Assembly (NCBI GenBank): GCA_036263035.1
Contig: DATAHR010000139.1
Span: 1 to 55,179 of the forward strand
DNA length: 55,179 nt
Direction of reading: 5' to 3'
Source: Gaiellales bacterium
GTDB taxonomy: Bacteria; Actinomycetota; Thermoleophilia; Gaiellales; JAICJC01
The translations under genes and the position numbers were made by a program. Positions 53,399 through 54,888 of this stretch are shown in pieces. Every line of letters starts with the position of its first letter. The stretch's first letter is position 1. The notes beneath the pieces are model-generated. The model was not told where the DNA came from. It did no database searches and was given only the letters and a program-made list of their open reading frames with translations.

Positions 53399-54061
53399 CT
53401 AGACCAGGAAGGGCACCAGCCGCTTCGTCCGCTGGGAGTAGGCCTGGTACTCCGGGAACTCGGCGGTGAGCGAACGCTCCTCGTACCGCGTACGGGCAAG
53501 CTGGAGGGCGACGCACACCACCCACACGGCCATAGCGAGGGCAAATCGTTTCGTGCCGAGCGCCACGCCCAACGCAGCCACCAGCTCGCCCAGGTAGAGC
53601 GGATGCCGGACAAACCGGTACGGGCCCCGCGTGACCAGGCCCCGAACGTCAGGCAGGACACCGAAGCACCGGCCGAGCACGGCCACGGACACAAGCGCGA
53701 AGATGAGGCCGCCGGCCAGCAGCACCGAGCCCACCGTGACCCGAGCTCCGCCACCGGCGTCCTCGCCCAGCGCCCCGAGCACGATCACGGCACCCTGCGC
53801 GGCGAAGGCGACGGCGACGGCGACCCGATCGGTCGTCCGGCGCACAGGCACGGGGCGGAGCAGGACGAGGGTGGCGAACATGAACCACAGGGCGGCACTG
53901 AGCAGCTGGTGGATTAGGGTGGATTGCGAGTCGGCGATGATGGCGGACCGCAGGTTGAGCGCTCCGACCGCGGCGAACAGCGCGGCGGGGAGCAGCCGGG
54001 CCGCAGCCCGATAGAGCGATCCACGTGACTCCACGACGACTACATCGGCCGGTCGGCCCAC
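53399..54061 (-). CDS. isoprenylcysteine carboxyl methyltransferase (ICMT)-family membrane protein
   Basis: GPYRFVRHPLYLGELV and YEERSLTAEFPEYQAY motifs. The start is uncertain (GTG 54061 or GTG 54034). The track start at 54112 lies inside the MITE-like element. Confidence 0.7.
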   Translation of the reverse strand: MGRPADVVVVESRGSLYRAAARLLPAALFAAVGALNLRSAIIADSQSTLIHQLLSAALWFMFATLVLLRPVPVRRTTDRVAVAVAFAAQGAVIVLGALGEDAGGGARVTVGSVLLAGGLIFALVSVAVLGRCFGVLPDVRGLVTRGPYRFVRHPLYLGELVAALGVALGTKRFALAMAVWVVCVALQLARTRYEERSLTAEFPEYQAYSQRTKRLVPFLV

Positions 54062-54073
54062 GGTCGTGAGCCT

Positions 54074-54388
54074 AGATGATTGATCGATATCTCCGTGAAG
54101 TCCAAGGCGCAAGGCGGAGCCTTGCGCCGGTCACGAGCGATCTGCGATCACGCAGATCGCGAGTGGGCGAGAACCGAGCCTGGCCAGGTGCAAGGCGGAT
54201 GCCTTGCACCGGTCATGAGCGATCTGCGATTACGCAGATCGCGAATGGCAGGGAGCGTCAATATCGGGAATATTGGCGCGACCGAGGACGCCGCCAGGCG
54301 ACGGTTCGCAGCCGTAGCCACCCACACCGTCTCGAACCCTCTACCTCTCGCAGCGGCCAGGCACGCAAGAGATATCGATCAATCATCT
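54074..54388. mobile_element. MITE-like non-autonomous element, 315 bp, perfect 20-bp terminal inverted repeats
   Basis: AGATGATTGATCGATATCTC at 54074-54093 is the exact reverse complement of 54369-54388. Inside are two 82-bp tandem units, each with two 10-bp-stem hairpins. It has no coding capacity. It lies between the folK stop and the ICMT-gene start. Confidence 0.6.
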
Positions 54389-54390
54389 GG

Positions 54391-54888
54391 CTATACGGGC
54401 CGGACGCCCTGGGCGGGAAGGGCCCGGAGCAACTCGCCCACGGTGCTGTCCCCAAGCGGCAGCTCCGGATCGAGATCCGCAAGCGGCCGCAGGACGAACT
54501 CGCGCTCGTGCGCCCGCGGATGCGGCAGGGTGAGCCGGTCGTCGGCGCTGGTCACCCCTTCGTACCAGAGCAGGTCGAGGTCGAGCGTGCGCGGTCCCCA
54601 GCGCACCGTGCGTTCGCGGTGGAACTCGGCCTCGATCGCCAGCAGGCCGTCGAGCAGGGCCGCGGGCTCGAGCGTCGTATCCAGCAGCACCACGGCGTTC
54701 AGGAAGGCCGGCTGATCCTCGTACCCGACCGGATCGGTCTCATACACGGGTGAGGCAGCCATTACGGCGCCCAGCCCGGCCAGCCTCGCGGTGGCGCTTC
54801 GCAGGACGGCCGGCGAATCACCCAGGTTGCTCCCCAGACCGATGTACGCGCGGTTCCCCCGGAAGGGTGGATTTGATGACATTTCCAT
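54391..54888 (-). CDS. folK: 2-amino-4-hydroxy-6-hydroxymethyldihydropteridine pyrophosphokinase
   Basis: AYIGLGSNLGD, SPVYETDPVG, FLNAVV, PRTLDLDLL, LPHPRAHEREFVL. Confidence 0.9.
   Translation of the reverse strand: MEMSSNPPFRGNRAYIGLGSNLGDSPAVLRSATARLAGLGAVMAASPVYETDPVGYEDQPAFLNAVVLLDTTLEPAALLDGLLAIEAEFHRERTVRWGPRTLDLDLLWYEGVTSADDRLTLPHPRAHEREFVLRPLADLDPELPLGDSTVGELLRALPAQGVRPV

What the first reader, a model, noticed from the sequence alone, without database searches (positions are those of the whole stretch)
54074..54388. MITE-like element with perfect 20-bp TIRs and two internal hairpin-pair units that show a compensatory base change
AGATGATTGATCGATATCTC (54074-54093) and its exact reverse complement (54369-54388) bracket 315 bp. 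The element lies 2 nt from the folK stop. It overlaps the ORF-track start of the ICMT-family gene, so that start is probably spurious. Inside are two tandem units with an 82-bp period. Each unit has hairpin A (unit 1: GGCGCAAGGC-gga-GCCTTGCGCC, 54106-54128; unit 2: GGTGCAAGGC-ggat-GCCTTGCACC, 54187-54210). Each also has hairpin B (GCGATCTGCG-atca or atta-CGCAGATCGC, 54137-54160 and 54219-54242). Hairpin A differs between units by a C-to-T change in the left arm, matched by a G-to-A change in the right arm, so pairing is preserved. A third, AT-rich hairpin CAATAT-cggga-ATATTG lies at 54259-54275. The element is rich in GATC and contains ClaI-like and EcoRV-like palindromes. I see no coding capacity, no transposase and no clear target-site duplication. 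It could be a non-autonomous transposon. It could also be a structured regulatory or RNA element bounded by a long-range 20-bp stem.
Basis: seen in the sequence. Interest (0 to 1): 0.65.

Follow-up and report, generated by a model that had tools for sequence, protein, structure and literature searches.

The report
Modular hairpin MITE with IS982-type ends
The 315-bp element is one copy of a small, gene-less mobile DNA repeat (a MITE) present in about 70 copies in this uncultured soil actinobacterium (Gaiellales); it uses the ends of an IS982-family insertion sequence and carries two optional hairpin cassettes, so it is a new family of a well-known kind of element, not a dedicated regulator of folK or its neighbour.

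Summary
A perfect 20-bp inverted repeat (54074-54093 / 54369-54388) bounds 315 bp that contain two hairpin-pair units and a central AT-rich hairpin.

It is not single-copy. The window's 3.07-Mb draft genome holds about 70 elements with the same outer terminus, AGATGATTGAT. They come in quantised lengths of about 200, 257, 315 and 376 bp, which is a 200-bp core plus 0 to 3 copies of a cassette that adds 57 bp.

The family occurs in 13 of 16 same-genus genomes and in other Gaiellales. Its termini match, over 15-24 nt, the ends of about 1-kb IS982-family insertion sequences found in related genomes. None was found in this genome.

Five clean empty sites in sister species show insertion at the TA of a pre-existing (N)TAG, usually a stop codon. 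The element's tips carry stop codons in all three frames.

This copy is species-specific. It entered the last codons of folK. The real start of the ICMT-family gene is GTG at 54034.

Both hairpins of the cassette, and the core, show strong compensatory covariation. The cassette keeps a tandem G·A mismatch in 44 of 49 variants.

Verdict: a new member of a known kind (an IS982-derived MITE). The structured, modular interior is unusual and its function is unknown.

The parts
54074..54388 (.). Whole MITE copy (subfamily i): 201-bp core plus two 57-bp-net cassettes
   Evidence: Paralogues at 94-98% identity: C258:1332-1646, C164:17698-, C100:199-574.
54074..54093 (+). Left terminal inverted repeat AGATGATTGATCGATATCTC. 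The outer 11 nt are shared by the whole family and the outer 15-17 nt by IS982-family insertion sequences of related genomes.
54369..54388 (-). Right terminal inverted repeat (exact reverse complement of the left one)
54104..54165 (+). Cassette 1: hairpin A (54106-54128), linker, hairpin B (54137-54160, extended stem 54132-54165 with a tandem G·A internal loop). It replaces the 5 nt TGGAC of cassette-free copies.
   Evidence: (joint 54103>54166 with TGGAC between)
54166..54185 (+). 20-nt core segment GGCGAGAACCGAGCCTGGCC between the two cassette sites; present in cassette-free copies
   Evidence: C86, C208, C129
54186..54247 (+). Cassette 2: hairpin A (54187-54210), linker, hairpin B (54219-54242, extended to 54247). 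Sits after core GGC(A/C)AGG and replaces AC.
   Evidence: (joint 54188>54248 with AC between)
54255..54279 (+). Central AT-rich hairpin GCGTCAATAT-cggga-ATATTGGCGC, the most conserved block of the family. The motif ATATCGGGAATAT has 68 hits in the genome with at most 1 mismatch.
54280..54368 (+). Right half of the core. It holds the conserved block GACCGAGGACGCC, then the right arms of the covarying long-range helices, then a variable stretch.
54391..54888 (-). folK (HPPK). Its stop TAG is 2 nt from the element. Its C-terminus is about 5-6 codons shorter than, and different from, that of orthologues.
53399..54034 (-). ICMT-family membrane protein gene. The likely true start is GTG at 54032-54034 (VESRGSLYR aligns with MDSHASLHR of a same-genus genome). 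The ORF-track start at 54112 lies inside the element and is spurious.

Best explanation
**What it is**
- The feature is a copy of a non-autonomous DNA transposon (a MITE).
- The family has about 70 copies in this genome and is widespread in uncultured soil Gaiellales (Thermoleophilia, Actinomycetota).

**How it moves (inferred)**
- Its 17-24-nt termini are those of about 1-kb IS982-family insertion sequences.
- It is therefore most likely moved in trans by that DDE transposase.
- The transposase would bind the two inverted termini and insert the element at the TA of a (N)TAG site. The filled site then reads ..(C)T|AG..element..CT|AG.., which is equivalent to a TA or CTAG duplication.
- In a 71% G+C genome, TAG stop codons supply most such sites. 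The tip CTAGATGATTGA also carries TAG, TGA and TGA in the three frames. Insertions at gene ends therefore do little harm and persist.

**Interior**
- The interior is unrelated to the insertion sequence.
- It is a 200-bp long imperfect hairpin with conserved unpaired blocks.
- It also carries 0-3 copies of a two-hairpin cassette that adds 57 bp. The cassette is found only inside this family.

**This copy**
- It has two cassettes.
- It inserted in this species' lineage into the last codons of folK, replacing its C-terminus.
- It now separates folK from the ICMT-family gene.

**Shown versus inferred**
- Shown: multi-copy family, module structure, similarity to insertion-sequence ends, empty sites, bias towards stop codons, covariation.
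- Inferred: mobilisation by the IS982-type transposase. No cognate transposase was found in this 88%-complete genome, so the copies here may currently be immobile.
- Unknown: how cassettes are gained, and whether the folded interior serves transposition (as single-stranded DNA) or the host (as RNA).
For: **Multi-copy and modular**
- The 315-bp query gives 70 matching segments on about 40 contigs.
- About 70 clusters combine terminus, central-hairpin and cassette motifs.
- Among 122 complete elements, lengths are quantised at about 200 (58 elements), about 257 (36), about 315 (7) and 376 (1).
- All 44 cassette copies in the genome lie inside family elements.

**Distribution**
- The family is present in 13 of 16 same-genus genomes, 4 of 8 genomes from other genera of the family, and 3 of 16 from other families of the order.
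- Record titles name Gaiellales or Thermoleophilia soil MAGs.

**Autonomous relatives**
- IS982-family transposases score 147-182 bits on NF033520 against a cut-off of 130. They occur in 22 of 301 genomes of the order.
- The insertion sequences are 966-1012 bp, and every copy for which a terminal repeat was resolved has CTAG at both ends.
- L266 has CTAGATGGTTGATCGAT and L264 has CTAGATGCTTGATCGG. Both resemble subfamily i, to which this element belongs.
- L254 and L255 have CTAGATGATTGATGCCACGGCGC on the left and ..GAGTCGTGGCATCAATCATCTAG on the right. This is the same left/right asymmetry as MITE subfamily ii.
- L253 has CTAGATCGTTGATTCCATAT, resembling subfamily iii.

**Target site**
- The flank logo from 120 elements gives C 76% at -2, T 67% at -1, A 61% at +1 and G 63% at +2. 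No repeat exists outside this palindrome.
- Five clean empty sites in G015 and G013 (for the elements on contigs C152, C108, C18, C7 and C51) have a single (N)TAG exactly at the junction.

**Gene ends**
- Of 63 element sides that face a gene's 3' end, 33 have the stop codon TAG formed by flank T plus element AG. Nine use the TGA at positions 4-6 and six use the TGA at positions 8-10.
- Contexts are 13 convergent, 21 tandem and 2 divergent.

**This copy**
- It is absent from the orthologous junction in same-genus genomes and metagenome contigs.
- It is present at this junction in three independent soil or root metagenomes.
Against: - No IS982-family transposase, or any other candidate partner, was found in the window's own genome. 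The genome is only 88% complete, and insertion sequences often drop out of MAGs.
- No insertion sequence was found whose ends match all 20 nt of this subfamily's TIR. The best match covers 15-17 nt.
- MITE-to-insertion-sequence similarity is confined to the terminal 20-34 nt. The MITE is therefore not a simple internal deletion of the insertion sequences seen.
- Only 28% of elements have CT..AG intact on both sides.
- This copy's flanks are CT/GG, and the orthologous site in relatives has no TA.
- Whether the duplication is 0, 2 (TA), 3 or 4 (CTAG) bp cannot be decided from sequence, because the site is palindromic.
- No transposition event was observed. No empty allele appeared in population data.
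Confidence: 0.85

Rival explanations
1. The element is primarily a host-serving structured RNA or single-stranded DNA element, for example an intercistronic or 3'-end stability, processing or termination signal. It spread because it is useful. The inverted termini would then be just the closing stem.
For: - Covariation is strong. In the cassette, 24 pairs are 95.7% canonical, 9 pairs change on both sides, and the covariation score is 0.228 against 0.079 for shuffles and at most 0.04 for slid controls.
- A tandem G·A internal loop is kept in 44 of 49 cassette variants while its flanking pairs covary.
- In the core, 53 pairs are 97.4% canonical and 25 covary across subfamilies.
- Folding z-scores are -11.6 and -9.9.
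- Elements sit mostly just downstream of genes.
- The interior is better conserved than the flanking dinucleotides.
- Contigs of a family copy occur in one rhizosphere metatranscriptome.
Against: - The termini are those of IS982-family insertion sequences.
- Insertion is at (N)TAG, with sister species showing empty sites.
- There is no orientation bias relative to the flanking gene's transcription (8 same, 6 opposite).
- Both strands fold about equally well.
- No Rfam family matches. The best hit is rsmX at 22 bits against a 56-bit cut-off.
- There is no promoter-like or terminator-like site.
- Palindrome-templated repair can produce compensatory changes without selection.
- The RNA evidence is a few contigs without strand information, and DNA carry-over is possible.
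Confidence: 0.1
2. It is a MITE mobilised by an IS630/Tc1-mariner-type transposase, like RUP of Streptococcus pneumoniae. The reason would be that insertion at TA within CTAG is the classic IS630 target.
For: - The CTAG/TA target preference fits. IS630 is known, from my own knowledge of the literature (Tenzen and Ohtsubo), to prefer TA in CTAG.
Against: - DDE_3 (PF13358) transposases are absent from the window's genome and from the MITE-rich long-read relatives G011, G006, G012 and G019.
- The few copies found in G004, G010 and G038 have no terminus resembling GATGATTGAT.
- IS982-family insertion sequences with matching termini and the same CTAG ends do exist.
Confidence: 0.03
3. It is a REP/BIME- or IS200/IS605-type palindromic element moved as single-stranded DNA by a Y1 HUH enzyme (RAYT/TnpA). 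The hairpins would be the recognition signals.
For: - The element has a mosaic, modular make-up and strong hairpins.
- It leaves no duplication outside a short palindromic site.
- All 49 cassettes in complete, orientable elements share one orientation, which would suit a strand-specific mechanism.
Against: - Long terminal inverted repeats identical to the ends of DDE insertion sequences are not a feature of REP or IS200/IS605 elements.
- The insertion site is symmetric (CTAG), not located 3' of a fixed tetranucleotide.
- No RAYT was searched for or seen next to copies.
Confidence: 0.02

Closest known systems
IS982-derived MITE of the Cardinium endosymbiont cOegib (about 240 bp, derived from ISCca4; PMC9769881)
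   Same: - A short element without a transposase gene, bounded by inverted repeats very like those of an IS982-family insertion sequence.
- Many copies, presumed to be maintained by the parental insertion sequence in trans.
   Different: - Here the parental-type insertion sequences were found only in other genomes of the order.
- Similarity to them is limited to 15-34 terminal nucleotides.
- The interior is a conserved, covarying multi-helix fold with optional cassettes.
- The host is a free-living, high-G+C soil actinobacterium.
BOX elements of Streptococcus pneumoniae (boxA-boxB(n)-boxC) - from my own knowledge
   Same: - Modular: fixed end modules plus a variable number (0 to several) of a short internal module.
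- Strongly folding, intergenic and multi-copy.
   Different: - BOX boxB units repeat in tandem at one position. Here the cassette sits at five or more different positions of the core, each time replacing 2-5 nt.
- There is no sequence similarity.
- The termini here match a known insertion-sequence family.
RUP (S. pneumoniae), Correia/NEMIS (Neisseria) and Nezha (cyanobacteria) MITEs with a TA target - from my own knowledge
   Same: - Size of 100-300 bp, terminal inverted repeats, insertion at TA.
- Intergenic or gene-end location, long hairpin fold, and possible co-transcription with neighbours.
   Different: - Those are linked to IS630- or Tc1-type transposases, or to an unknown one. Here the matching insertion sequences are of the IS982 family.
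- The tips here supply stop codons in all three frames.
- The cassette system is not described for them.
REP/BIME mosaic elements of enterobacteria - from my own knowledge
   Same: - A mosaic of short palindromic modules.
- Location after genes.
- Covariation that preserves hairpins.
   Different: - REPs lack long terminal inverted repeats and are moved by RAYT (Y1) enzymes.
- None of that is seen here.

Membership tests
MITE (miniature inverted-repeat transposable element) | Short (under about 600 bp) with no coding capacity | tested here: met
   - The element is 315 bp.
- Family lengths of 79-393 bp vary by single nucleotides.
- Only chance ORFs typical of G+C-rich DNA cross it.
MITE (miniature inverted-repeat transposable element) | Terminal inverted repeats | tested here: met
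   - The TIR is a perfect 20 nt.
- The outer 11 nt are conserved in 120 elements.
MITE (miniature inverted-repeat transposable element) | Multiple dispersed copies in the genome | tested here: met
   About 70 elements on separate contigs.
MITE (miniature inverted-repeat transposable element) | Insertion polymorphism with a defined target or duplication | tested here: met
   - Five clean empty sites in sister species have a single (N)TAG.
- The window's own copy is absent from relatives.
- The length of the duplication (0, 2 or 4 bp) is formally ambiguous because CTAG is a palindrome.
- This copy itself has imperfect flanks (CT/GG).
MITE (miniature inverted-repeat transposable element) | An autonomous element with matching ends | tested here: met
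   - IS982-family insertion sequences in related Gaiellales share 15-24 terminal nucleotides with the three MITE subfamilies.
- None was found in the window's own genome.
IS982-family-derived element | The partner transposase belongs to the IS982 family | tested here: met
   - NF033520 scores of 147, 147 and 181.8 bits against a cut-off of 130.
- Pfam DDE_Tnp_1 and DDE_Tnp_1_3 also match.
IS982-family-derived element | The interior derives from the insertion sequence by deletion | tested here: not met
   No similarity beyond the terminal 20-34 nt. The interior is of separate origin, or has diverged beyond recognition.
IS982-family-derived element | Actual mobilisation by that transposase | not testable with these tools
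   This needs a transposition assay.
IS630/Tc1-mobilised MITE (RUP-like) | An IS630-family insertion sequence with matching ends in the same lineage | tested here: not met
   PF13358 is absent from the window's genome and from MITE-rich relatives. The copies that do exist lack the terminus.
REP/BIME or IS200/IS605-type palindromic element | No long TIRs; insertion 3' of a fixed short motif; a Y1 enzyme | tested here: not met
   - Long TIRs are present and the target is the symmetric CTAG.
- A Y1 enzyme was not searched for.
Any described RNA family (Rfam 15) | A match at or above the gathering score | tested here: not met
   The best match is rsmX at 22.1 bits against 56 (E = 0.09).

The most novel reading that the evidence does not exclude
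**The reading**
- The 57-bp-net two-hairpin cassette, and perhaps the conserved core, would be a selected nucleic-acid module in its own right.
- It could be a strand-specific single-stranded DNA or RNA structure bound by a protein.
- It would propagate from site to site within this MITE family by a mechanism of its own, for example microhomology- or hairpin-templated copying at ..AGG sites.

**Evidence that does not exclude it**
- Hairpin A covaries.
- Hairpin B has an invariant CGATCTGCG/CGCAGATCG core.
- A tandem G·A loop is conserved in 44 of 49 variants.
- Flanking pairs covary.
- The cassette occurs only inside this family: all 44 copies in this genome, at five or more different positions of the core.
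- All 49 cassettes in complete, orientable elements share one orientation relative to the core.

If true, this would be a parasite-within-a-parasite, or a functional payload carried by the MITE.
Probability: 0.15. Interest if true: 0.6.

Novelty: new member of a known kind. Interest (0 to 1): 0.35.

Why it matters
**Annotation**
- These elements break contigs. Many copies sit at contig ends.
- They create false gene starts, such as the 54112 start of the ICMT gene.
- They rewrite gene C-termini, as in folK here.
- Recognising the family will improve annotation of Gaiellales MAGs, a very abundant but uncultured soil lineage.

**Biology**
- The family is a clear case of a MITE that outnumbers and outlives its IS982-type parent.
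- It shows how a transposon can target overlapping or single TAG stop codons in a high-G+C genome while restoring the stops from its own tips.
- The covarying interior and the movable cassette offer a tractable case for asking why MITE interiors are structured.

None of this changes the general picture of bacterial MITEs.

Tried and rejected
1. **Known RNA family.** Rfam found nothing above noise.
2. **Plasmid-borne relatives.** None were found.
3. **Autonomous element in the window's genome.**
   - Pairs of termini 400-4000 bp apart were only neighbouring MITEs, with one exception.
   - The exception is a 3.2-kb stretch on C245 flanked by two inverted 87-bp half-elements. It carries ordinary genes (PPK2-like, permease, VIT-like) and is not a transposase locus.
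   - The same scan over 96 loci from relatives found nothing.
5. **IS630 partner.** Rejected.
6. **Population-level empty alleles.**
   - Logan contigs of seven soil or root metagenomes gave none at this site or on contig C127.
   - The contigs break inside the repeat. The joints seen are other family members lacking cassettes.
7. **A direct repeat outside the CTAG palindrome.** None was found for repeat lengths of 2-6 nt at any offset.
8. **Free-standing copies of the cassette.** None exist.
9. **Promoter or terminator consensus.** None was found.
10. **Orientation bias relative to transcription.** None was found: 8 versus 6.
11. **Metatranscriptomes.** They gave only a few unstranded contigs, from another copy.
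12. **The cassette as a simple insertion with its own repeats or duplication.** The boundaries show replacement of 2-5 nt after ..AGG. There are no terminal repeats, so the mechanism remains unexplained.

Full report
**1. The observation**

- The 20-nt arms at 54074-54093 and 54369-54388 are perfectly complementary (I1). They are the only matches in the 55-kb window even with 3 mismatches allowed, against 0.00 expected.
- Hairpins A and B, their two copies 82 bp apart, the C/T and G/A paired difference, and the AT-rich hairpin are all confirmed.
- folK (54391-54888, minus strand) ends 2 nt from the element.

**2. It is one copy of a large, modular family**

Copy number:
- The window is contig C139 of a 3.07-Mb, 270-contig MAG that is 88% complete and 70.7% G+C.
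- The 315-bp query hits 70 segments on about 40 contigs.
- The exact or near-exact 20-mer TIR occurs 30 times.
- A motif census gives about 70 elements sharing the outer terminus AGATGATTGAT.
- Many copies lie at contig ends, so the true number is probably higher.

Subfamilies differ after nucleotide 11:
- (i) ..TCGATATCTC, which includes this element.
- (ii) ..TTCCACGGCGCC on the left and ..TTCCACGACTCC on the right. This is the most numerous subfamily.
- (iii) AGATCGTTGATTCCATATCGCC.

Lengths of 122 complete elements, from this genome plus related loci, are quantised:
- About 200 bp: 58 elements.
- About 257 bp: 36 elements.
- About 315 bp: 7 elements.
- 376 bp: 1 element.
- A few are short remnants of 79-126 bp.

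The increment is a 62-nt cassette that replaces 2-5 nt of the core, for a net gain of 57 bp. The cassette consists of hairpin A, the linker GGTCAYGA, and hairpin B.
- In this copy the cassettes are at 54104-54165 and 54186-54247.
- The 20 nt between them belong to the core and are present in cassette-free copies such as C86:32800-33000.
- The '82-bp tandem repeat' is therefore two cassettes at two neighbouring sites.
- The two cassettes belong to two site-specific lineages. Site 1 carries GGCGCAAGGC/GCCTTGCGCC in C139, C258 and C100. Site 2 carries GGTGCAAGGC/GCCTTGCACC in C139, C164, C258 and C52.
- All 44 cassette copies in the genome lie inside family elements.
- Cassettes occupy five or more different core positions.
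- All 49 cassettes in complete, orientable elements have the same orientation relative to the central hairpin. Of these, 25 lie before it and 24 after it.

**3. Distribution**

- The family is present in 13 of 16 same-genus genomes, 4 of 8 genomes from other genera of the family, and 3 of 16 from other families of the order.
- A pattern from the central hairpin (ATATCGGGAATAT N5 CGACCGAGGACGC) hits more than 76 contigs. Almost all are labelled Gaiellales, Thermoleophilia or 'uncultured Actinomycetes' soil MAGs.
- The plasmid collection has nothing similar.
- A full-text literature search finds no paper on transposable elements of Gaiellales.

**4. Autonomous relatives: IS982-family insertion sequences**

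How the lead was followed:
- IS630-type transposases (PF13358) were tried first because of the CTAG target. They are absent from the window's genome and from MITE-rich relatives. The few copies present lack the terminus.
- Earlier notes of this scan included one that called the family 'IS982-type'. I tested that claim.
- NF033520 finds an IS982-family transposase in same-genus G015.
- Using that protein as query, 22 of 301 genomes of the order have relatives.

I then extracted the inverted repeats around these genes.
- The insertion sequences are 966-1012 bp.
- Every copy for which a terminal repeat was resolved begins and ends with CTAG.
- Several have termini that match the MITEs:

| Locus (genome) | Terminus | MITE subfamily it resembles |
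|---|---|---|
| L262 (G027) | CTAGATGATTGATTCC | ii |
| L254 (G194), L255 (G267) | CTAGATGATTGATGCCACGGCGC.. left; ..GAGTCGTGGCATCAATCATCTAG right | ii (same left/right asymmetry, 23-24 nt each side) |
| L266 (G200) | CTAGATGGTTGATCGAT | i (this element) |
| L264 (G075) | CTAGATGCTTGATCGG | i (this element) |
| L253 (G173, same taxonomic family) | CTAGATCGTTGATTCCATAT | iii |

- The transposases pass the curated IS982 cut-off, scoring 147-182 bits against 130. They also match DDE_Tnp_1.
- MITE-to-insertion-sequence similarity is restricted to the terminal 20-34 nt.
- The window's own genome has no such transposase.
- An IS982-derived MITE has been described once before, in Cardinium (PMC9769881).

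**5. Target site and gene context**

Flanks:
- In 120 elements the flanks read C (76%) and T (67%) before the element, and A (61%) and G (63%) after it.
- Background frequency is about 15% for each of A and T.
- No direct repeat exists outside this palindrome.

Empty sites:
- I concatenated the joined flanks of 13 elements that lie between convergent genes and searched the genus.
- This gave contiguous, 85-91% identical empty sites in G015 and G013.
- In five clean cases (C152, C108, C18, C7, C51) the relative has a single CTAG, TTAG or GTAG exactly at the junction. The filled site has ..T|AG..element..CT|AG...
- This equals insertion with duplication of TA (or of CTAG). The palindrome makes the length of the duplication formally undecidable.
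- In C152 the empty site shows two convergent genes whose stop codons overlap in CTAG. After insertion each gene keeps a TAG.

Genome-wide context:
- Of 63 element sides that face a gene's 3' end, 33 have the stop codon formed by flank T plus element AG.
- Nine end at the TGA at element positions 4-6, and six at the TGA at positions 8-10.
- The tip (C)TAGATGATTGA therefore holds stops in all three frames.
- Contexts are 13 convergent, 21 tandem and 2 divergent.
- Orientation relative to transcription is unbiased (8 versus 6).

Persistence:
- One orthologous filled site exists. The C238 element in this genome is 237 bp, and G013 has a 42-bp remnant at the same site with the same atypical end.
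- This shows that copies persist through speciation and decay by internal deletion.

**6. This copy**

- The orthologous folK-ICMT junction lacks the element in same-genus G015 and G013 and in the closest metagenome contigs.
- There, folK runs 5-6 codons further, ending ..QGVRAVQATLR* or ..QGVRATGTSLM*.
- In the window folK ends ..QGVRPV*, with TAG 2 nt before the element. Without that TAG the frame would stop at the element's TGA.
- The insertion therefore replaced the folK C-terminus.
- The orthologous site has no TA, and this copy's flanks are CT/GG.
- The ICMT-family gene starts at GTG 54032-54034. Its VESRGSLYR aligns with MDSHASLHR in G015. The start is 39 nt from the element, so the 54112 start is an artefact of the open frame running into the element.
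- Junction contigs identical to the window occur in three independent soil or root metagenomes, so the insertion is fixed in the sampled populations. These contigs span 53600-54101 and 54359-54600.

**7. Structure**

Folding:
- Both strands fold far better than shuffles, with z-scores of -11.6 and -9.9.

Cassette (49 distinct variants, alignment A1):
- The 24 proposed pairs are 95.7% canonical, against 87.0% for shuffles.
- Nine pairs change on both sides.
- The covariation score is 0.228, against 0.079 for shuffles and at most 0.04 for slid controls.
For example, pair 3/26 is GC, CG or UA; pair 10/19 is GC, UA or CG; pair 36/61 is GC or CG.
- The inner part of hairpin B (CGATCTGCG / CGCAGATCG) hardly varies.
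- A tandem 5'-GA/5'-GA mismatch within its extended stem is kept in 44 of 49 variants while the pairs on both sides covary.
- The opposite strand would carry TC/TC at that position.

Core (57 cassette-free elements of all subfamilies):
- RNAalifold gives 53 pairs that are 97.4% canonical.
- Twenty-five pairs covary.
- The fold is a terminal stem, a second stem, and a long inner helix. The inner helix encloses conserved unpaired blocks (AAGGATCGAGGGAGG and CGACCGAGGACGCC) and the central AT hairpin. A variable stretch follows.

What this means:
- Covariation of the termini is expected for any transposon.
- Covariation of the inner helices and the cassette points to selection for hairpin formation in a single strand, either DNA during transposition or replication, or RNA.
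- Alternatively it reflects palindrome-templated repair. I cannot separate these.
- There is no Rfam match and no promoter-like or terminator-like site.
- Metatranscriptome support is weak.

**8. Verdict**

- The element is a member of an undescribed, IS982-type MITE family of Gaiellales. This is an ordinary kind of selfish DNA.
- It has an unusually conserved, modular interior.
- What remains unexplained is how the cassette is gained, always in one orientation, only inside this family, and replacing a few nucleotides after ..AGG.
- It is also unexplained what keeps the folded interior and its G·A motif conserved.

Noticed in passing
G000 contig C245:1512-4726 (locus L136:513-3727): Two 87-bp half-elements (terminus to central hairpin) in inverted orientation flank 3.2 kb. 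That stretch carries a PPK2-like gene, an amino-acid/polyamine-type permease and a VIT-family gene. It could be a split element, an inversion between two copies, or a composite arrangement.
   Followed up: partly
G000 contig C171:7204-7243: A solo subfamily-i terminus (AGATGATTGATCGATATCTC, followed by a degenerate inverted copy) lies about 110 nt upstream of a sigma-70-family sigma factor gene.
   Followed up: no
window 54391-54420 (folK 3' end): folK in this genome has a shortened, altered C-terminus (..QGVRPV*) compared with orthologues (..QGVRATGTSLM* or ..QGVRAVQATLR*), as a result of the insertion.
   Followed up: yes
L147 (metagenome contig Ga0066662_10000657), downstream of folK: In this close relative (folK 87% identical) the ICMT-family gene is reduced to a short remnant ORF. 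folK is followed almost directly by the homologue of the window's 53021-53359 gene.
   Followed up: no
L244 (G198:C98) and L233 (G015:C92): Some IS982-family copies have inverted repeats that extend beyond CTAG into the flank (GCGCTACTAG.. on both sides in L244; CCTAG.. in L233). This suggests insertion into palindromic sites or into another repeat.
   Followed up: no
G013:C112 (L309) versus G000:C238:5935-6171: An orthologous insertion is shared by two species, 237 bp here and a 42-bp internally deleted remnant in G013. Both have the same atypical ..CATCA/..CGTCA end. Elements therefore persist across speciation and decay by deletion.
   Followed up: partly
window 54074-54093 and 54137-54160, 54219-54242: The TIR and hairpin B are rich in GATC, and the TIR contains ATCGAT and GATATC. 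Whether DNA methylation modulates transposase binding, as Dam does for some enterobacterial insertion sequences, was not examined.
   Followed up: no
core block next to cassette site 2, window 54180-54190: The first arm of the cassette (TGCAAGG) directly repeats the core block (G)GCAAGG that precedes cassette site 2 in some copies (for example C258: GGCAAGGTGCAAGG). It also resembles the conserved core block GCGCAAGGA. This hints that hairpin A arose by local duplication and palindromisation of core sequence.
   Followed up: no
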